This document shows positions 1-4,506 of a stretch of DNA of 4,583 nucleotides, piece by piece. This stretch comes from a virus (taxonomy: Duplodnaviria; Heunggongvirae; Uroviricota; Caudoviricetes). The position numbers were made by a program, and so were the translations under genes. Position 1 is the first letter of the stretch, and every line of letters begins with the position of its first letter. Location of the stretch: IMG/VR virus record IMGVR_UViG_2529292996_000007; one strand, written 5' to 3'. The notes under the pieces were generated by a model. That model was not told the DNA's origin. It saw nothing but the letters and a program-made list of their open reading frames with translations, and did not search any database.

Positions 1-348
1 GGCTATGTGCATTTCCCTGACTGGCTGGGGAGCTGGTTTTACGACGAACTGACGTATGAAGAGCGGAGCAGTGACGGGAAATGGAGTAAGCCTGGTCGCG
101 GTGCCAACGAAGCTTTTGACCTGATGGTGTATGCCGAGGCTCTGGTCATTCTGCATGGATACGAAAAGATCCGCTGGCCGGATGCACCGGAGTGGGCGAG
201 CCGGGAAACCTGGCTGGAGTGTGTCCAGGACAGTACCGAACCGTCATCCTCACCGGAACCGGTATCCACGCCTGTTAAAAAACAAAAACGGAAGAAAACA
301 GTAACTGACGATGTTAACCCCTGGCTGACTTCCGGAGGATGGTTATGA
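1..348 (+). CDS. Terminase large subunit, C-terminal fragment (5' end lies upstream of the window)
   Basis: Frame 1 is open from base 1 to the TGA at 346-348, so the first listed Met at 7 is probably internal. It sits immediately upstream of the gpW-like and portal genes, which is the lambda A-W-B gene order, and its stop overlaps the next start (ATGA at 345-348). The C-terminal tail is Ser/Pro/Glu-rich followed by a Lys-rich cluster (KKQKRKK). The call rests on position and context; I cannot verify terminase motifs in a 113-aa tail. Confidence 0.6.
   Translation, partial: GYVHFPDWLGSWFYDELTYEERSSDGKWSKPGRGANEAFDLMVYAEALVILHGYEKIRWPDAPEWASRETWLECVQDSTEPSSSPEPVSTPVKKQKRKKTVTDDVNPWLTSGGWL
334..338 (+). 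promoter_or_regulatory. Shine-Dalgarno (GGAGG) for the gpW-like gene, 6 nt upstream of ATG 345
   Basis: GGAGG at 334-338, followed by a 6-nt spacer and ATG at 345-347. Confidence 0.6.
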
Positions 349-557
349 ACCAGAATGATATCGAAGCCATGATTCAGCGTTATATGGAAGCTGAAATGGC
401 GGTGCTGGACGGAAAATCCGTCACCTTTAATGGTCAGCAGATGACCATGGAAAACTTATCTGAGATCCGGCAGGGACGGCAGGAGTGGGAGCGCCGCCTT
501 GCGGCTCTGATTACACGACGACGGGGGCATCCCGGGTACCGGCTGGCGAGGTTCTGA
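345..557 (+). CDS. gpW-like head completion / head-tail joining protein (70 aa)
   Basis: Start ATG 345 is preferred over ATG 339 because the SD at 334-338 has no spacer to 339. The 70-aa product matches lambda gpW in size (about 68 aa) and ends in a basic RRRG-containing tail (…ITRRRGHPGYRLARF) that resembles my recollection of the gpW C-terminus. It sits between terminase and portal. Stop TGA 555-557 overlaps the portal ATG 557-559. Confidence 0.75.
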   Translation: MNQNDIEAMIQRYMEAEMAVLDGKSVTFNGQQMTMENLSEIRQGRQEWERRLAALITRRRGHPGYRLARF

Positions 558-2065
558 TGGCAATTCTTGATGATGTGATTGGCGTTTTTTCACCTGGATG
601 GAAAGCGGCAAGGCTGCGTTCCCGTGCGGTGATCCAGGCTTATGAAGCCGTAAAAACGACGCGGACACACAAAGCCCGACGGGAGAACCGAACTGCCGAC
701 CAGCTAAGCCAGTACGGGGCCGTGTCGTTACGTGAGCAGGCCCGTTACCTTGATAACAACCACGATCTGGTTATTGGTGTATTTGACAAGCTGGAAGAAC
801 GGGTGGTGGGGAAAAACGGGATTATTGTCGAGCCACATCCGGTATTACGCAATGGGGCCATTGCCCGTGATCTGGCAGCGGAGATTCGCACCCGATGGAG
901 TGAATGGTCTGTCAGCCCGGAAGTCACCGGGCAGTTTACCCGTCCGATGCTGGAACGTCTGATGCTGCGTACCTGGCTGCGCGATGGTGAGGTGTTTGCC
1001 CAGATGGTTTCCGGGCGCATAAACAGCCTGACGCCTTCTGCCGGTGTTCATTTCTGGCTGGAGGCGCTCGAGCCGGACTTTATTCCCATGACCAGTGATG
1101 AGAGCAACAGGCTGAATCAGGGCGTGTTTGTTGATGACTGGGGGCGTCCCGAAAAATATCTGGTGTATAAAAGCCGTCCCGTATCCGGACGGCAGATGGA
1201 AACCAAAGAAGTGGATGCAGAGCGAATGCTGCATCTTAAATTTGTTCGCCGTCTGCACCAGATGCGCGGGACGTCTTTGTTGTCCGGTGTGCTGATCCGC
1301 CTCAGTGCCCTGAAAGATTATGAAGATTATGAGCTGACTGCAGCAAGGATCGCCGCTGCTCTGGGGATGTACATCCGCAAAGGCGACGGGCAGAGCTATG
1401 AACCGGATGGTAATGGCAGCAAGGATAAGGAACGCGAGCTTACCATTCAGCCAGGCATTATTTACGATGATCTGAAACCCGGCGAAGAAATCGGAATGGT
1501 GAAGTCGGATCGCCCCAATCCTAACCTTGAAACTTTTCGTAATGGTCAGTTGCGTGCCGTGGCGGCGGGCAGTCGTCTGAGTTTTTCCAGTACAGCGCGC
1601 AACTATAACGGCACTTACAGCGCCCAGCGTCAGGAGCTGGTTGAATCTACTGATGGCTACCTGATCCTGCAGGACTGGTTTATTGGTGCCGTCACCCGCC
1701 CGATGTATCGTGCATGGCTGAAACAGGCTGTGGCATCCGGTGTTATCAGGCTACCCCGCGATCTTGACCGTTCTTCACTGTATACCGCGGTGTATTCCGG
1801 ACCAGTGATGCCGTGGATTGACCCTGTTAAGGAGGCTGAGGCCTGGAAAATCCAGATTCGTGGTGGAGCGGCGACAGAATCAGACTGGGTACGTGCTGGT
1901 GGTCGTAATCCGGATGATGTCAAACGTCGGCGCAAGGCCGAAATTGATGAAAACCGCAAGCTGGATCTGGTATTTGATACCGATCCGGCCAGTGATAAAG
2001 GAGGCAGTAGTGCCGCAACGAAACGACAGGAGCCGCAGCACACCGACGACCAGTCCGAAGATTAA
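557..2065 (+). CDS. Portal protein (502 aa)
   Basis: Long ORF ending at TAA 2063-2065. ATG 557 is preceded by GAGG at 548-551 with a 5-nt spacer and overlaps the upstream stop (TGATG). Size and position after the gpW-like gene and before the protease/capsid gene fit a portal. The track's upstream start at 485 is a GTG with no properly spaced SD and would overlap the gpW-like gene by 73 nt. The C-terminal tail is acidic and polar (…KRQEPQHTDDQSED). Confidence 0.8.
   Translation: MAILDDVIGVFSPGWKAARLRSRAVIQAYEAVKTTRTHKARRENRTADQLSQYGAVSLREQARYLDNNHDLVIGVFDKLEERVVGKNGIIVEPHPVLRNGAIARDLAAEIRTRWSEWSVSPEVTGQFTRPMLERLMLRTWLRDGEVFAQMVSGRINSLTPSAGVHFWLEALEPDFIPMTSDESNRLNQGVFVDDWGRPEKYLVYKSRPVSGRQMETKEVDAERMLHLKFVRRLHQMRGTSLLSGVLIRLSALKDYEDYELTAARIAAALGMYIRKGDGQSYEPDGNGSKDKERELTIQPGIIYDDLKPGEEIGMVKSDRPNPNLETFRNGQLRAVAAGSRLSFSSTARNYNGTYSAQRQELVESTDGYLILQDWFIGAVTRPMYRAWLKQAVASGVIRLPRDLDRSSLYTAVYSGPVMPWIDPVKEAEAWKIQIRGGAATESDWVRAGGRNPDDVKRRRKAEIDENRKLDLVFDTDPASDKGGSSAATKRQEPQHTDDQSED
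1999..2004 (+). promoter_or_regulatory. Strong Shine-Dalgarno (AGGAGG, within AAAGGAGG 1997-2004) inside the portal 3' end, 5 nt upstream of in-frame GTG 2010 of the protease/capsid ORF
   Basis: AGGAGG at 1999-2004, spacer 2005-2009 (cagta), GTG at 2010-2012, which is in frame with the long ORF ending at 4037. Confidence 0.5.
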
Positions 2066-4037
2066 TTCCTGGTTCAGGATGCAGGCTGGTCACCAGAGTG
2101 ACGCGGATATTTATATTTATGACGAGATTGGTTTCTGGGGTGTTACAGCGAAGCAGTTTATCAGTGATCTGAATGCACTGGGCGATATCACCCACATTAA
2201 TCTCCATATCAATTCACCGGGTGGCGATGTCTTTGAAGGCATCGCCATTTTTAATGCACTGAAAACACATGGTGCGTCCATTACCGTTTATGTCGACGGT
2301 GTGGCGGCGTCAATGGCGTCGGTCATTGCGATGGTGGGAAACCCGGTCATTATGCCGGAAAACACCTTCATGATGATTCATAAACCATTTGGCTTTACGG
2401 GCGGTGATGCGGAGGACATGCGCACCTATGCCGACCTGCTCGATAAGGTTGAGGCGGTTCTGTTACCCGCTTATGCACAGAAAACCGGGAAAACCACCGA
2501 TGAAATTGCTGCCATGCTGGCGGATGAGACCTGGATGTCCGGTGCCGAATGTCTGGCACATGGATTTGCTGATCAGGTAACGCCAGCCGTTAAGGCAATG
2601 GCATGTATTCAGTCAAAACGTACAGAGGAATTTAAAAAGATGCCGGAATCCATTCGAAACATGATTACTCCGCCACGCAACAGTGCTCCACGCGTACAGG
2701 ATGATGAACCTGCAGCCTCCCGGACGCCAGTGCAGGCAGCAGCACCCGTGGTGGATGAAAACAGTATCCGTGCGCAGGTACTGGCAGAGCAAAAAGCGCG
2801 TGTAAACGGTATTAATGATCTGTTTGCCATGTTTGGCGGGCGTTATCAGACGCTGCAGGCTCAGTGTCTTGCCGATCCTGAGTGTTCGCTGGAGCAGGCC
2901 CGCGAAAAGCTGTTGAACGAGATGGGGCGCGAGTCCACGCCATCCAATAAAAATACACCGGCTCATATTTATGCTGGTAACGGTAATTTTGTGGGGGACG
3001 GGATTCGCCAGGCGCTGATGGCGCGTGCCGGATTTGAAAAAACCGAACGTGATAATGTCTACAACGGGATGACCCTGCGTGAATATGCCCGTATGTCACT
3101 GACTGAACGGGGTATTGGGGTTTCCGGTTATAACCCGATGCAGATGGTCGGTGCGGCGTTCACACACAGTACGTCTGACTTCGGTAATATTCTGCTGGAT
3201 GTTGCGAACAAAGCCATTCTGCAGGGCTGGGAAGATGCTCCTGAAACCTATGAACAATGGACGCGGAAAGGTCAGTTGTCTGATTTTAAAATTGCCCATC
3301 GTGTGGGTATGGGGGGCTTCAGTGCTCTGCGTCAGGTGCGTGAAGGGGCGGAATATAAATACGTCACCACCGGAGATAAACAGGCCACTATTGCACTGGC
3401 GACCTATGGCGAGCTGTTCAGTATCACCCGTCAGGCCATTATCAATGATGATCTGAATATGCTGACCGATGTCCCGATGAAACTGGGCCGTGCGGCGAAA
3501 TCCACTATTGCCGATCTGGTTTATGCCATTCTGACGTCTAACCCGAAAATCTCCACAGATAATGTAAGTCTGTTCGATAAAGCGAAACATGCAAACGTAC
3601 TGGAGAGCGCTGCAATGGACGTGGCATCGCTGGATAAAGCCCGCCAGTTGATGCGCGTTCAGAAAGAGGGGGAGCGTCATCTGAATATTCGTCCTGCGTT
3701 CGTACTGGTACCGACGGCGATGGAGTCTGTTGCTAACCAGGTCATTCGCTCCTCAAGTGTCAAGGGGGCTGACATTAACGCCGGTATTATTAACCCGGTG
3801 AAAGATTTTGCGACCGTTATTGCAGAGCCTCGTCTTGATGATAACAGCCAGACCACCTTCTACCTGGCTGCGTCAAAAGGCTCCGATACGATTGAAGTGG
3901 CTTATCTCAACGGTGTGGATACGCCATATATTGATCAGATGGAGGGCTTCAGTGTGGATGGCGTGACAACGAAAGTGCGTATTGACGCCGGTGTCGCGCC
4001 AGTTGATCACCGCGGTCTGGTGAAATGTACGGCGTAA
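2010..4037 (+). CDS. Fusion polyprotein: ClpP-like (S14) prohead serine protease, linker/scaffold-like segment and HK97-fold-type major capsid domain
   Basis: Continuous ORF ending at TAA 4035-4037. The N-terminal region carries ClpP-family motifs: GVAASMAS (candidate catalytic Ser codon 2310-2312), MMIHKP (candidate His codon 2379-2381) and a C-terminal ClpP-like motif ADETWMSGAECLAHGFADQV. The C-terminal roughly 360 aa (about 2950-4037) has the length and character of a phage major capsid protein. The start is ambiguous: GTG 2010 has a canonical SD but overlaps the portal by 56 nt, while ATG 2079 is the first ATG after the portal stop and has no SD. I report 2010; the alternative gives 2079..4037 (652 aa). 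Confidence 0.8.
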   Translation: MPQRNDRSRSTPTTSPKINSWFRMQAGHQSDADIYIYDEIGFWGVTAKQFISDLNALGDITHINLHINSPGGDVFEGIAIFNALKTHGASITVYVDGVAASMASVIAMVGNPVIMPENTFMMIHKPFGFTGGDAEDMRTYADLLDKVEAVLLPAYAQKTGKTTDEIAAMLADETWMSGAECLAHGFADQVTPAVKAMACIQSKRTEEFKKMPESIRNMITPPRNSAPRVQDDEPAASRTPVQAAAPVVDENSIRAQVLAEQKARVNGINDLFAMFGGRYQTLQAQCLADPECSLEQAREKLLNEMGRESTPSNKNTPAHIYAGNGNFVGDGIRQALMARAGFEKTERDNVYNGMTLREYARMSLTERGIGVSGYNPMQMVGAAFTHSTSDFGNILLDVANKAILQGWEDAPETYEQWTRKGQLSDFKIAHRVGMGGFSALRQVREGAEYKYVTTGDKQATIALATYGELFSITRQAIINDDLNMLTDVPMKLGRAAKSTIADLVYAILTSNPKISTDNVSLFDKAKHANVLESAAMDVASLDKARQLMRVQKEGERHLNIRPAFVLVPTAMESVANQVIRSSSVKGADINAGIINPVKDFATVIAEPRLDDNSQTTFYLAASKGSDTIEVAYLNGVDTPYIDQMEGFSVDGVTTKVRIDAGVAPVDHRGLVKCTA

Positions 4038-4060
4038 ACGTCGCAGACAACAACTCTGAT

Positions 4061-4080
4061 GGCCCGTAAGGGCTTTTTTT
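4061..4080 (+). terminator. Putative intrinsic terminator, copy 1 (short GC stem with GUAA tetraloop plus U7)
   Basis: ggccc-GTAA-gggc at 4061-4073 gives four G-C pairs plus a possible G-U closing pair around a GNRA-type tetraloop, followed by seven T at 4074-4080, directly after the capsid stop. The stem is short, so strength is uncertain. Confidence 0.45.
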
Positions 4081-4119
4081 GTACCGTACGGCGTAAACGT
4101 CGCAGACAACAACTCTGAT

Positions 4120-4139
4120 GGCCCGTAAGGGCTTTTTTT
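4120..4139 (+). terminator. Putative intrinsic terminator, copy 2 (identical to copy 1)
   Basis: Identical hairpin at 4120-4132 and T7 at 4133-4139 within the second repeat unit. Confidence 0.45.
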
Positions 4140-4150
4140 GTACCTGAAAT

Positions 4151-4169
4151 CAGCCCCTGAACGGGGCTG
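4151..4169 (+). other. Perfect 7-bp stem / 5-nt loop hairpin in the 5' leader of the downstream gene
   Basis: cagcccc (4151-4157), loop tgaac (4158-4162), ggggctg (4163-4169) form an exact inverted repeat. There is no T-run after it, so it is unlikely to be a terminator. It lies 4 nt upstream of the SD at 4173-4177. Confidence 0.4.
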
Positions 4170-4172
4170 TGC

Positions 4173-4177
4173 GGAGA
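4173..4177 (+). promoter_or_regulatory. Shine-Dalgarno (GGAGA) for the DUF2190-like gene
   Basis: GGAGA at 4173-4177, 5-nt spacer, ATG at 4183. Confidence 0.55.
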
Positions 4178-4182
4178 CAGTT

Positions 4183-4506
4183 ATGGCAAAGAATTTTGTA
4201 GAAGAAGGAAAAACGGTGGCGATTGTTGCCAGTGCAGCCATCAGCAGCGGAGACCTGGTGCAGGTGGGTGATGTTTTTGCGGTGGCGCTGACCGATATTC
4301 CACAGGGTGAAACAGGCGACGGCCTGACCGAAGGTGTGTTTATGCTGCCTAAGCTGAAAACGGATGACATGAAAACGGGTAAGAAGGTTTATCTGAAGTC
4401 CGGAAAAGTTCAGCTGACTAACAGCGGCTCTGATCCGCTGGTCGGGGTTGTCTGGGCAGATGCCGGAACCAGTGCAGAAGAAGTGCCGGTAAAACTCAAT
4501 GTCTGA
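4183..4506 (+). CDS. Small DUF2190-like phage head protein, putative capsid decoration protein (107 aa)
   Basis: ATG 4183 with SD; stop TGA 4504-4506. The track's longer ORF starts at TTG 4138, which lies inside the terminator repeat and has no SD. The protein has the Gly/Val-rich pattern I associate with the DUF2190 family (…GDLVQVGDVFAVAL…GVFMLPK…GKKVY…PLVGVVWADA…VPVKLNV), which is commonly found just downstream of major capsid genes. Family assignment is from memory, not a search. Confidence 0.7.
   Translation: MAKNFVEEGKTVAIVASAAISSGDLVQVGDVFAVALTDIPQGETGDGLTEGVFMLPKLKTDDMKTGKKVYLKSGKVQLTNSGSDPLVGVVWADAGTSAEEVPVKLNV

What the first reader, a model, noticed from the sequence alone, without database searches (positions are those of the whole stretch)
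2010..4037. Protease, linker and major capsid protein encoded as one polypeptide
A single ORF contains a ClpP-like serine protease domain (Ser motif GVAASMAS at codon 2310-2312, His motif MMIHKP at codon 2379-2381, and a ClpP-like C-terminal motif around 2520-2580), followed by about 120 aa of linker and a capsid-sized domain of about 360 aa. No separate scaffold or protease gene lies between portal and capsid. This implies a self-processing assembly polyprotein in which the maturation protease is delivered covalently attached to every capsid subunit or is cleaved off during maturation. Protease-capsid fusions of this kind are known in some lambdoid prophages, so the architecture is unusual rather than necessarily new; the cleavage sites and the fate of the protease domain would be the unresolved part.
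Basis: partly seen in the sequence, partly recalled or inferred. Interest (0 to 1): 0.45.

Follow-up and report, generated by a model that had tools for sequence, protein, structure and literature searches.

The report
Phage protease-scaffold-capsid fusion gene
This is the head-building gene of a common E. coli lambda-like phage, in which the maturation protease, a scaffold segment and the capsid protein are one reading frame; the fusion is already catalogued, but comparison suggests the gene also makes a shorter, protease-free copy from an internal start.

Summary
Window 2010-4037 (+) is one ORF of 675 codons. It encodes a ClpP-like (S14) protease domain, a linker of about 135 aa, and an HK97-fold capsid domain of about 350 aa.

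The fusion is not new. The protein matches NCBIfam NF045540, [quoted passage not shown], over its full length (986 bits, cut-off 475), and PHROG 133. The window is 99-99.9% identical to phages cdtI, mEp460, Tritos and Ayreon. The gene's 3' end, tested with a 401-nt query, occurs in 1826 of 5426 complete E. coli genomes. It is not a sequencing artefact.

One addition: the gene is probably nested. ATG 2640-2642 (Met211) follows a conserved GAGGA.
- Of 16 conserved in-frame start-type codons, only codon 1 and codon 211 carry a Shine-Dalgarno (SD) motif.
- The SD is held by a constrained synonymous site.
- The surrounding mRNA is unusually unstructured.
- Distant fusions, including ones with an S78 protease, have an SD-ATG at the same domain boundary.

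A 50.7-kDa scaffold-capsid product would then co-assemble with the 73.5-kDa full-length form, as with lambda C/Nu3.

The cleavage sites remain untested. The window also carries a unique, perfect 59-bp tandem duplication (4027-4144).

The parts
2010..4037 (+). Full-length gene: 675 codons plus stop, 73.5 kDa. Encodes ClpP-like prohead protease, scaffold-like linker and HK97-fold major capsid protein. It overlaps the 3' end of the portal gene by 56 nt.
   Evidence: ORF. NF045540 match at 986 bits against a cut-off of 475, full length. PHROG 133 full length. Start column conserved with an SD. Masses.
2000..2004 (+). Shine-Dalgarno GGAGG for the main GTG start at 2010, with a 5-nt spacer.
   Evidence: Sequence. 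The AAG codon just upstream has G at its third position in 17 of 17 homologues. It is one of only two such constrained columns out of 58.
2073..2582 (+). ClpP-fold (MEROPS S14) serine protease domain, aa 22-191. Ser101 is at 2310-2312, His124 at 2379-2381, and Glu173 at 2526-2528 occupies the ClpP catalytic Asp position.
   Evidence: Pfam PF00574. NF045542 'head maturation protease, ClpP-related' at 216 bits. PDB ClpP sequence matches at about 1e-16 with alignment. AF2 plus Foldseek. Invariant Ser and His.
2625..2642 (+). Probable internal translation-initiation site: GAGGA (2625-2629), a 10-nt A/U-rich spacer, and ATG 2640-2642 (Met211). The predicted product is aa 211-675, 465 aa and 50.7 kDa: scaffold plus capsid without protease.
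   Evidence: ATG in 22 of 23 homologues, and 22 of those 22 have an SD-like motif; the other conserved Met codons have 0-4. Glu206 is GAG in 19 of 20 although GAG makes up only 0.12-0.5 of Glu codons gene-wide in most of these genes. The third-position G is constrained. Local mRNA structure is low: median 92nd percentile in 22 homologues, and -1.4 kcal/mol in the window. Stand-alone relatives begin MP... at the aligned position.
2667..2750 (+). Variable Pro/Ala-rich segment predicted to be disordered (aa 220-247). Flexible tether between the protease and the scaffold helices.
   Evidence: pLDDT below 50. Poorly conserved columns with gaps.
2757..2930 (+). Predicted three-helix scaffold-like segment (aa 250-307), placed N-terminal to the capsid fold like the HK97 delta domain.
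   Evidence: Helices 250-273, 280-288 and 294-307 at pLDDT 77-89 in the full-length model. They recur at about 80-92 in the second model. Conserved R264, I268, D289, A297 and L302.
2934..2987 (+). Disordered junction (aa 309-324) plus the conserved H-I-Y-A-G-N-G-N motif (aa 319-326, nt 2964-2987). Predicted region of the maturation cleavage that creates the mature capsid N-terminus. This is an inference.
   Evidence: pLDDT below 50 for aa 309-324. N324 is 99/101 and G325 is 101/101. The first capsid helix starts at aa 327.
2988..4034 (+). HK97-fold major capsid protein domain (aa 327-675). The mature protein is predicted to be 38-40 kDa.
   Evidence: PF25209 at 8e-55 and PF10124 Mu-like gpT at 4e-8. 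AF2 pLDDT is mostly above 85. Foldseek PDB hits to HK97, encapsulins and phage capsids. BFVD major capsid proteins.
4027..4144 (+). Perfect 59-bp tandem duplication (4027-4085 and 4086-4144). It covers the last 11 nt of the gene, including the stop, and the terminator-like hairpin, which is therefore present twice (4061-4074 and 4120-4133, each followed by a T-run). It does not change the protein.
   Evidence: TRF: period 59, 2.0 copies, 100% match. Alignment to cdtI and Tritos, which have one copy. Terminator scan. The junction is absent from complete E. coli genomes and from IMG/VR.
557..2065 (+). Lambda-family portal protein gene, immediately upstream (context).
   Evidence: PF05136 at 7.5e-82. 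TIGR01539 at 1.3e-135. cdtI annotation.
4183..4506 (+). Capsid cement/decoration protein gene (DUF2190 / Phage_cement_2), immediately downstream (context).
   Evidence: PF09956 at 2.3e-20. PHROG 122 'head decoration' at 4.9e-47.

Best explanation
The ORF is the head-assembly gene of a lambdoid E. coli siphovirus of the cdtI/mEp460/Tritos group. It is a member of the catalogued family of ClpP-like prohead protease / major capsid protein fusions.

Shown by the sequence: one frame encodes four parts.
1. An S14 serine protease domain with Ser101, His124 and Glu173.
2. A flexible Pro/Ala-rich tether.
3. A helical, scaffold-like segment.
4. An HK97-fold capsid domain.

Inferred mechanism: two nested in-frame products are translated. 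The 73.5-kDa full-length protein starts at GTG 2010. A 50.7-kDa scaffold-capsid protein starts at ATG 2640 (Met211). Both co-assemble through the capsid domain on the lambda-type portal into a procapsid. A T=7 shell is assumed from the genome size and the measured head diameter; it was not determined. The scaffold and protease parts point inward, so the protease is delivered as a covalent part of a subset of subunits. The protease then removes itself and the scaffold segment from all subunits. The final cut is expected in the disordered junction at aa 309-326, near the conserved HIYAGNGN motif. This would leave a shell protein of about 38-40 kDa, which expands and is then bound by the downstream cement protein.

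My confidence in the identity of the gene is about 0.97. My confidence in the nested second product is about 0.65. The exact cleavage position is a guess at region level only.
For: Identity:
- Pfam, PHROG and NCBIfam matches.
- 99-99.9% nucleotide identity to 16 sequenced phages.
- 100% protein identity to a phage protein.
- NCBI's own name for the homologues.
- The 3' end of the gene (401-nt query) is present in 1826 of 5426 complete E. coli genomes.
- The 99%-identical phage Tritos forms plaques and has a 57-nm head (PMC9928086).

The fusion is ancient. It is full-length in Enterobacteriaceae, Pasteurellaceae, Pseudomonas, Parashewanella, Spongiibacter and Vibrio phages, down to 25% identity and with the same gene neighbours.

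Folds.

Nested start:
- Of 16 conserved start-type codons, only codon 1 and codon 211 carry an SD.
- Synonymous-site constraint creates GAGGA. The main start's SD behaves the same way and serves as an internal positive control.
- The mRNA around the ATG is open in 22 of 22 homologues.
- Database relatives of 410-480 aa consist of scaffold plus capsid only. Two of them begin MPxSAK... at the position aligned to Met211.
- In 19 of 22 distant fusion loci, ClpP-type and S78-type, an SD-ATG lies 243-302 residues upstream of the IINDD capsid anchor. In the window it lies 266 residues upstream.
- In 11 non-redundant ORFs, 10 of 15 ATGs in that zone have an SD. Outside that zone and the N-terminal start region, about 7 of 150 do.
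Against: - There is no experimental evidence here or in the searchable literature for either product, for protease activity or for any cleavage site.
- The SD is weak (GAGGA with a 10-nt spacer, or about 8 nt when aligned to the anti-SD). It is also tied to a conserved peptide (E/Q-E/D-F-x-x-M-P) that could be kept for a protein-level reason such as a cleavage or docking site.
- In the Vibrio clade the linker Met (M247) is invariant, but the upstream motif is only AGGT in 13 of 15 sequences.
- The homologues are phylogenetically related, so the counts are not independent.
- The short 'stand-alone' relatives could be truncated gene calls, because their genomic context could not be seen.
- The acidic triad residue is Glu rather than the canonical Asp.
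Confidence: 0.75

Rival explanations
1. There is a single product only. Every capsid subunit is made as the 73.5-kDa protease-scaffold-capsid polyprotein, giving about 415 proteases per T=7 procapsid. The conserved Met211 and the GAGGA are kept for protein-level or other reasons.
For: This is the simplest reading of a single ORF. The motif F208-x-x-M-P212 is conserved as a peptide, so it could be a cleavage or docking site. By my own estimate, about 14.5 MDa of internal protein would fill roughly 40% of a T=7 prohead cavity. That is crowded but physically possible.
Against: The constraint is at a synonymous position (GAG in 19 of 20 at codon 206, against a mostly GAA-biased background). A peptide-level explanation does not predict this. 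The same nucleotide-level signature marks the bona fide main start. An SD-ATG recurs at the same domain boundary in unrelated linker sequences and with a different protease fold. The local mRNA is open.
Confidence: 0.22
2. The fusion is artefactual. A sequencing or assembly error, or a decaying prophage, has joined separate protease and capsid genes.
For: The window does contain one oddity that could be an assembly artefact, a perfect 59-bp tandem duplication just past the stop codon. Some database entries in this family are clearly chimeric gene calls, such as P0006, P0033 and P0061.
Against: The same uninterrupted frame is present in 16 near-identical sequenced phages, including plaque-forming ones, and in 80 phage records at 80% coverage or more. 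It is also present in loci from several Gammaproteobacterial families and genera and is the basis of a curated NCBIfam model. Among the 150 best 50%-identity cluster representatives found with the capsid domain, most are fusions of 620-790 aa. The duplication lies outside the coding sequence.
Confidence: 0.01
3. The C-terminal domain is a scaffold or other internal protein, as in older annotations ('protease/scaffold protein', 'Nu3', 'protease C'), and the real major capsid protein is encoded elsewhere.
For: Many GenBank records annotate the gene that way.
Against: The domain has the HK97 capsid fold with high model confidence and matches capsid Pfam families. No other capsid-like gene is present in the head-to-tail module of cdtI or Tritos. 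Newer annotations call it the major capsid or head protein (H6, H8, H16, H18).
Confidence: 0.02

Closest known systems
NCBIfam NF045540 (scaf_prot_MCP1, 'ClpP-like prohead protease/major capsid protein fusion protein') = PHROG 133. Examples: gp05 of phage cdtI and the homologous genes of mEp460, Tritos, Ayreon and the VT1-Sakai/Stx lambdoid prophages.
   Same: It is the same protein family and effectively the same gene. The profile match is full-length and far above the cut-off. Nucleotide identity to these phages is 99-99.9%. The gene order is the same: large terminase, W-like adaptor, lambda-type portal, fusion, cement protein.
   Different: Nothing in the protein differs. The window differs only by the 59-bp tandem duplication downstream of the stop. 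The family name says nothing about an internal start.
HK97 gp4 protease plus gp5 (delta domain fused to the major capsid protein)
   Same: Both have an HK97-fold shell protein with an N-terminal helical scaffolding segment that is expected to be removed by a phage serine protease (fold; scaffold fused to the capsid protein as described for HK97 in PMC10275583). There is no separate scaffold gene.
   Different: The HK97 protease is a separate gene of the S78 family, and it is targeted non-covalently. Here the protease is ClpP-type (S14) and lies in the same frame. Sequence identity of the capsid domains is about 12% or less. Whether this capsid cross-links like HK97 was not examined.
Nested protease/scaffold genes: lambda C/Nu3, Mu I/Z, herpesvirus UL26/UL26.5 (from established knowledge of these systems)
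   Same: The logic is the same. The long product carries the protease N-terminal to a scaffold, and a shorter in-frame product from an internal start supplies the scaffold in excess. That sets the ratio of protease to scaffold. The head-gene neighbourhood is lambda-like, with a lambda-family portal and a W-like adaptor.
   Different: In those systems the capsid protein is a separate gene. Here both nested products would also carry the capsid protein. Lambda gpC is an S49-family protease rather than S14. The internal start here is inferred from comparison only.
NCBIfam NF045541 (scaf_prot_MCP2): S78/HK97-type prohead protease fused to the same capsid family
   Same: The linker plus capsid part is homologous. 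Window aa 197-649 (652-aa numbering) match profile positions 176-630 at 402 bits. Examples are P0322/P0323 and loci L130-L140. An SD-ATG lies at the same boundary.
   Different: The protease fold is different (Peptidase_S78, PF04586). The window scores below that model's cut-off of 525, so it is not a member.
Protease-scaffold-capsid fusions of small-genome actinobacteriophages (Microbacterium cluster EE, Arthrobacter AN/AX/FE, Gordonia CW/DM, Rhodococcus RRH1)
   Same: The three-part architecture in one gene is the same, and it is noted as a recurrent feature (PMC7302621; genome announcements).
   Different: The hosts are Gram-positive, the genomes are very small, and no sequence relationship to this family was tested here.

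Membership tests
NF045540 ClpP-like prohead protease / major capsid protein fusion | Whole-protein score above the curated cut-off with a full-length profile match | tested here: met
   986 bits against a cut-off of 475. Residues 9-651 match profile positions 2-651 of 652.
NF045540 ClpP-like prohead protease / major capsid protein fusion | N-terminal ClpP-related head-maturation protease domain and C-terminal capsid domain in one uninterrupted frame | tested here: met
   NF045542 at 216 bits (cut-off 120) for residues 9-167. PF00574 and PF25209 in the same ORF. No stop between 2010 and 4034.
NF045540 ClpP-like prohead protease / major capsid protein fusion | Position in a phage head module between the portal gene and the head-completion/tail genes | tested here: met
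   Portal upstream and cement protein downstream in the window. The same order is seen in cdtI, Tritos, a Pseudomonas phage, a Vibrio phage and an Stx phage.
MEROPS S14 / ClpP serine peptidases | ClpP fold | tested here: met
   AF2 model aa 22-191 at pLDDT about 80-94. Foldseek matches to ClpP crystal structures at a target-normalised TM-score of 0.74-0.83 and rmsd 1.6-4 Å.
MEROPS S14 / ClpP serine peptidases | Ser-His-Asp catalytic triad | tested here: inconclusive
   Ser101 and His124 are invariant. The position aligned to the ClpP catalytic Asp is Glu173, conserved in at least 90% of sequences. This may be a Ser-His-Glu variant. Activity was not tested.
MEROPS S14 / ClpP serine peptidases | Heptameric or tetradecameric barrel working with a Clp ATPase | not testable with these tools
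   No oligomer modelling was done. No ATPase partner is expected for a prohead protease.
HK97-fold major capsid proteins | HK97 fold (N-arm, E-loop, P-domain spine helix, A-domain) | tested here: met
   Model of aa 211-675 at mean pLDDT 84. Foldseek probability 1.0 to HK97 Prohead II/Head II, encapsulins and the capsids of phiXacJX1, FCWL1, SU10 and HRP29, and to BFVD major capsid proteins. Individual sub-domains were not mapped one by one.
HK97-fold major capsid proteins | It is the major shell component of the virion | not testable with these tools
   This needs virion proteomics. Indirect support: it is the only capsid-fold gene in the head module.
Delta-domain type capsid proteins (HK97/T5-like; scaffold fused to the capsid protein and removed by the protease) | N-terminal helical scaffolding segment directly preceding the capsid fold | tested here: met
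   Predicted helices 250-273, 280-288 and 294-307, followed by a disordered junction at 309-324.
Delta-domain type capsid proteins (HK97/T5-like; scaffold fused to the capsid protein and removed by the protease) | Proteolytic removal of that segment during maturation | not testable with these tools
   No published N-terminal or mass-spectrometry data for this family were found.
Nested protease/scaffold genes (lambda C/Nu3 type) | In-frame internal start with its own ribosome-binding site downstream of the protease domain | tested here: met
   This was tested at the level of sequence signals only. There is a conserved ATG with an SD, a synonymous-site constraint and open mRNA. An SD-ATG recurs at the same boundary in distant fusions.
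Nested protease/scaffold genes (lambda C/Nu3 type) | Two protein products actually made | not testable with these tools
   This needs western blot, mass spectrometry or initiation-site ribosome profiling.

The most novel reading that the evidence does not exclude
The 'fusion' genes may really be nested two-product genes, and this may be general. On this reading, in protease-scaffold-capsid fusions of both protease types (ClpP/S14 and HK97-like/S78), a conserved internal ribosome-binding site just after the protease domain produces a protease-free scaffold-capsid protein. The protease would then be carried by only a tunable minority of shell subunits. That would combine the lambda C/Nu3 strategy with the HK97 delta-domain strategy in one reading frame. 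I found no description of this in the searchable literature.
Probability: 0.6. Interest if true: 0.45.

Novelty: already known. Interest (0 to 1): 0.28.

Why it matters
The fusion itself does not change anything. It is a curated, named family, it is abundant in E. coli prophages, and the window is essentially identical to sequenced phages.

Two things give it modest value. First, this very common head type appears to have no solved structure: the capsid part has no sequence match in the PDB. I also found no mapped cleavage sites for it. That makes it an under-studied assembly system in organisms of medical interest, namely Stx, Cdt and Gifsy-like prophages. The Gifsy link is from memory and was not tested here.

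It would also give a simple, testable rule for a whole class of fused head genes. Annotation pipelines would then need to record two products for these genes.

Tried and rejected
- ATG 2079 as the start (annotated in cdtI, 652 aa). Rejected in favour of GTG 2010 because of the strong SD, the conserved SW[FY] residues upstream of 2079, and the lack of an aligned Met in Pseudomonas and Vibrio homologues.
- Sequence search of the PDB for a solved relative of the capsid domain. Only ClpP chains were hit. Fold search of the full-length model was swamped by ClpP, so a second model of aa 211-675 was made.
- Ten literature searches for experimental work on this fusion: processing sites, virion proteomics, internal start. 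Nothing specific was found. Three papers that might bear on it could not be read: Oh et al. 2014, Liu & Mushegian 2004, and a 2026 bioRxiv ribosome-profiling study of the archaeal virus HFTV1.
- The internal start in the Vibrio clade (25% identity). The Met at the E. coli position is absent. A different, invariant linker Met (M247) exists, but it has only a weak AGGT motif upstream. I count this as partial support, not confirmation.
- Rfam scan of the window: no RNA family.
- Inverted-repeat tool on 3950-4250: nothing reported, although folding shows the hairpins.
- Source of the 59-bp duplication: the junction was not found in complete E. coli genomes or in IMG/VR.

Full report
**1. What is there**

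The window is the left end of the head-gene module of a lambdoid E. coli phage. In order, it holds:
- the 3' end of the large terminase gene (1-348; GpA nuclease domain);
- a small W-like adaptor gene (339/345-557);
- a lambda-family portal gene (557-2065);
- the long ORF in question;
- a DUF2190/Phage_cement_2 decoration gene (4183-4506).

The whole window is 99-99.9% identical to 16 sequenced phages. These include cdtI, mEp460, Tritos, Ayreon, phi458 and vB_EcoS-813R6. The 3' end of the gene, tested with a 401-nt query, is found in 1826 of 5426 complete E. coli genomes. Tritos, which is 99% identical, is a plaque-forming siphovirus with a 57-nm head (PMC9928086). The gene is therefore functional.

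**2. The observation**

The stop-to-stop frame opens at 1809. The best-supported start is GTG 2010, 5 nt after GGAGG.
- The aligned column is a start codon in 19 of 21 non-redundant homologues, 14 of them with a Shine-Dalgarno (SD) motif.
- Residues upstream of the alternative ATG 2079 (SW[FY]) are conserved in Pseudomonas and Vibrio homologues, which have no Met there.

The product is 675 aa and 73.5 kDa. The gene overlaps the portal gene by 56 nt.

Profile searches give CLP_protease (E 4.5e-36) and Phage_capsid_4 (E 8.3e-55), plus a weaker Mu-like gpT match. PHROG 133 matches end to end.

Ser101 is 2310-2312 and His124 is 2379-2381. Both are invariant in a 101-sequence alignment that spans 26-100% identity. 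The residue aligned with the ClpP catalytic Asp is Glu173 (2526-2528). It is conserved in at least 90% of sequences, whereas the neighbouring Asp172 is not.

**3. Structure**

An AlphaFold2 model of the full protein has mean pLDDT 80. In 675-aa numbering it shows:

| Residues | Prediction |
|---|---|
| 22-191 | ClpP fold |
| 203-219 | two short helices |
| 220-247 | disordered Pro/Ala-rich stretch |
| 250-307 | three helices |
| 309-324 | disordered |
| 327-675 | well-predicted C-terminal domain |

The N-terminal domain superposes on ClpP crystal structures at a target-normalised TM-score of about 0.8. A second model, of aa 211-675, has pLDDT 84. It matches HK97 Prohead II and Head II, many encapsulins, and the capsids of phages phiXacJX1, FCWL1, SU10 and HRP29. 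Probability is 1.0, E is 1e-8 to 1e-9, and identity is 14% or less. It also matches annotated major capsid proteins in BFVD.

By sequence, no solved structure matches the capsid part. The C-terminal domain is therefore an HK97-fold capsid protein without a close structural precedent. The three helices in front of it sit where HK97 and T5 carry their scaffolding (delta) domain (PMC10275583).

**4. It is a known family**

NCBIfam has a curated model, NF045540 (scaf_prot_MCP1), named 'ClpP-like prohead protease/major capsid protein fusion protein'. The window protein scores 986 bits against a cut-off of 475, over the full length. NCBI and UniRef use that name for hundreds of identical or near-identical proteins.

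The fusion is old and widespread.
- 80 phage records carry it at 80% coverage or more.
- Full-length copies with the same neighbours occur in a Pseudomonas phage (56% identity), a Vibrio myovirus-like phage (25%) and Stx phages (76%).
- They also occur in genomes of Enterobacteriaceae, Pasteurellaceae, Pseudomonas, Parashewanella and Spongiibacter.
- A search of 1.84 billion cluster representatives with the capsid domain alone found 2696 clusters at E ≤ 1e-30. Most of the 150 best are 620-790 aa with the capsid domain at the C-terminus.

A sister family, NF045541, fuses the same linker-capsid module to an S78 (HK97-type) protease instead. Protease-scaffold-capsid fusions are also noted as typical of small actinobacteriophages (PMC7302621).

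Its statement that such fusions are known is correct.

**5. What the comparison adds: a probable internal start**

I aligned the coding DNA of 23 non-redundant homologues (47-100% protein identity). I then asked which in-frame ATG/GTG/TTG codons are conserved and which are preceded by GGAG, GAGG or AGGA at -18 to -5.

Sixteen start-type codons are conserved. Only two have the motif in most sequences.
- Codon 1: 14 of 19.
- Codon 211, which is ATG 2640-2642: 22 of 22. The ATG itself is present in 22 of 23.
- The other fourteen have it in 0-4 sequences.

The motif (GAGGA at 2625-2629 in the window) comes from codons 206-207. Glu206 is GAG in 19 of 20 sequences. GAG makes up only 12-50% of Glu codons gene-wide in most of these genes, and neighbouring Glu codons are mostly GAA. 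The one GAA belongs to the one homologue that lacks the Met.

Among 58 columns rich in Glu/Gln/Lys, only two have G at the third position in nearly all sequences. One is the column inside the SD of the main start (17 of 17). The other is column 206 (22 of 23). The known ribosome-binding site thus acts as a positive control for the signature.

The 41 nt around ATG 2640 are among the least structured windows of the gene in all 22 homologues tested. The median is the 92nd percentile, and the value is -1.4 kcal/mol against a gene mean of -8.0 in the window.

Aligned to the anti-SD, the spacing is about 8 nt, which I consider workable. This spacing estimate is my own analysis of the sequence.

**6. 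Support from more distant relatives**

- Some 50%-identity cluster representatives of 410-480 aa consist of scaffold plus capsid only. Several begin with Met-Pro. Two of them (P0336, MPPSAKNLFEP; P0341, MPKSAKRFFEP) begin at the position aligned to window Met211 (MPESIRNMITPP). Their genomic context could not be inspected.
- In 22 distant viral contigs carrying ClpP-type or S78-type fusions, 19 have an SD-preceded ATG 243-302 residues upstream of the conserved IINDD capsid motif. In the window the distance is 266.
- In 11 non-redundant ORFs, 10 of the 15 ATGs in that zone carry an SD. Outside that zone and the N-terminal start region, about 7 of 150 do.
- In the Vibrio clade the E. coli-type Met is absent. 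A different linker Met (M247) is invariant, but it is preceded only by AGGT in 13 of 15 sequences. This is weaker evidence.

**7. Most likely mechanism**

Shown: one frame encodes the protease, a tether, a helical segment and the capsid fold. The sequence signals of a second, in-frame initiation site lie just after the protease.

Inferred:
1. Two products are made: 73.5 kDa (full length) and 50.7 kDa (Met211-end).
2. They co-assemble through the capsid domain on the portal.
3. The helical segment acts as a built-in scaffold, as in HK97.
4. The protease enters the procapsid as part of a minority of subunits. This is the logic of lambda C/Nu3, Mu I/Z and herpesvirus UL26/UL26.5 (established knowledge of those systems).
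5. It then removes itself and the scaffold.

The final cut is expected in the disordered junction at aa 309-326, next to the almost invariant HIYAGNGN motif (N324 in 99/101 sequences, G325 in 101/101). That would leave a shell protein of 38-40 kDa, which the cement protein then decorates.

The single-product alternative is not excluded. By my estimate, about 415 copies of a 35-kDa internal part would occupy roughly 40% of a T=7 prohead cavity.

**8. Verdict**

The feature is already known, down to a curated family name. To these I add a specific, testable proposal of a nested second product. I found no experimental paper on processing in this family, within the limits of the library.

**9. Noticed besides**

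The window carries a perfect 59-bp tandem duplication (4027-4085 and 4086-4144). It repeats the last 11 nt of the gene and the terminator-like hairpin after it. All phage relatives have one copy. The junction is absent from 5426 complete E. coli genomes and from IMG/VR. It does not alter the protein. It may be a recent slippage event or an assembly artefact.

Noticed in passing
window 4027-4144: Perfect 59-bp tandem duplication (2.0 copies, 100% identity). It covers the last 11 nt of the fusion gene, including its stop, and the terminator-like hairpin GGCCC-GTAA-GGGCT plus T7, which therefore occurs twice (4061-4074 and 4120-4133). All 16 near-identical phages have a single copy. The junction is absent from complete E. 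coli genomes and from IMG/VR. It could be a recent slippage event or an assembly artefact, and it might strengthen termination before the cement gene.
   Followed up: partly
window 4151-4169: Stable stem-loop (7-bp G+C-rich stem, AGCCCC-UGAAC-GGGGCU; -17.9 kcal/mol for 4140-4190, z = -2.5). It lies between the terminator and the GGAG ribosome-binding site of the cement/decoration gene and is conserved in cdtI and Tritos. It might modulate expression of the cement protein. No T-run follows it.
   Followed up: partly
window 2010-2065: The fusion gene, starting at GTG 2010, overlaps the last 56 nt of the portal gene in a different frame. Its SD (2000-2004) lies inside the portal coding sequence. 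The N-terminal 18 residues of the fusion are predicted to be disordered, and they differ between the cdtI and Stx groups.
   Followed up: partly
L130-L140, L143, L146 (IMG/VR contigs); P0322, P0323: A sister architecture has an S78 (HK97-type) prohead protease fused to the same linker-capsid family (NCBIfam NF045541). It is again followed by a DUF2190-like gene, and it again has an SD-ATG just after the protease domain. This looks like displacement of the protease domain in front of a conserved scaffold-capsid module.
   Followed up: partly
Database proteins P0006, P0033/P0034, P0061, P0080/P0081: Predicted proteins join this fusion protein, at 99-100% identity, to terminase, portal, minor tail protein L or tail-fibre (DUF1983) domains, giving lengths of 796-1135 aa. 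These are probably rearranged or decaying prophages, or gene-call or assembly chimeras.
   Followed up: no
L004 and L068-L125 (Vibrio/Photobacterium clade): In this clade, the main start in L004 (and the clade consensus) and the invariant linker Met (M247) both read M-P-K-P. The codons before M247 are nearly fixed as CAG GTA AGC/T GAC/T, so synonymous sites are constrained there too. In L004 the same head module is joined to myovirus-type baseplate genes rather than a siphovirus tail.
   Followed up: partly
window 339-348: The W-like adaptor gene (ATG 339 or 345) overlaps the end of the large terminase gene (stop at 346-348), and its own stop overlaps the portal start at 557. The arrangement 339-2065 is tightly coupled, as is typical of lambda-like head operons.
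   Followed up: no
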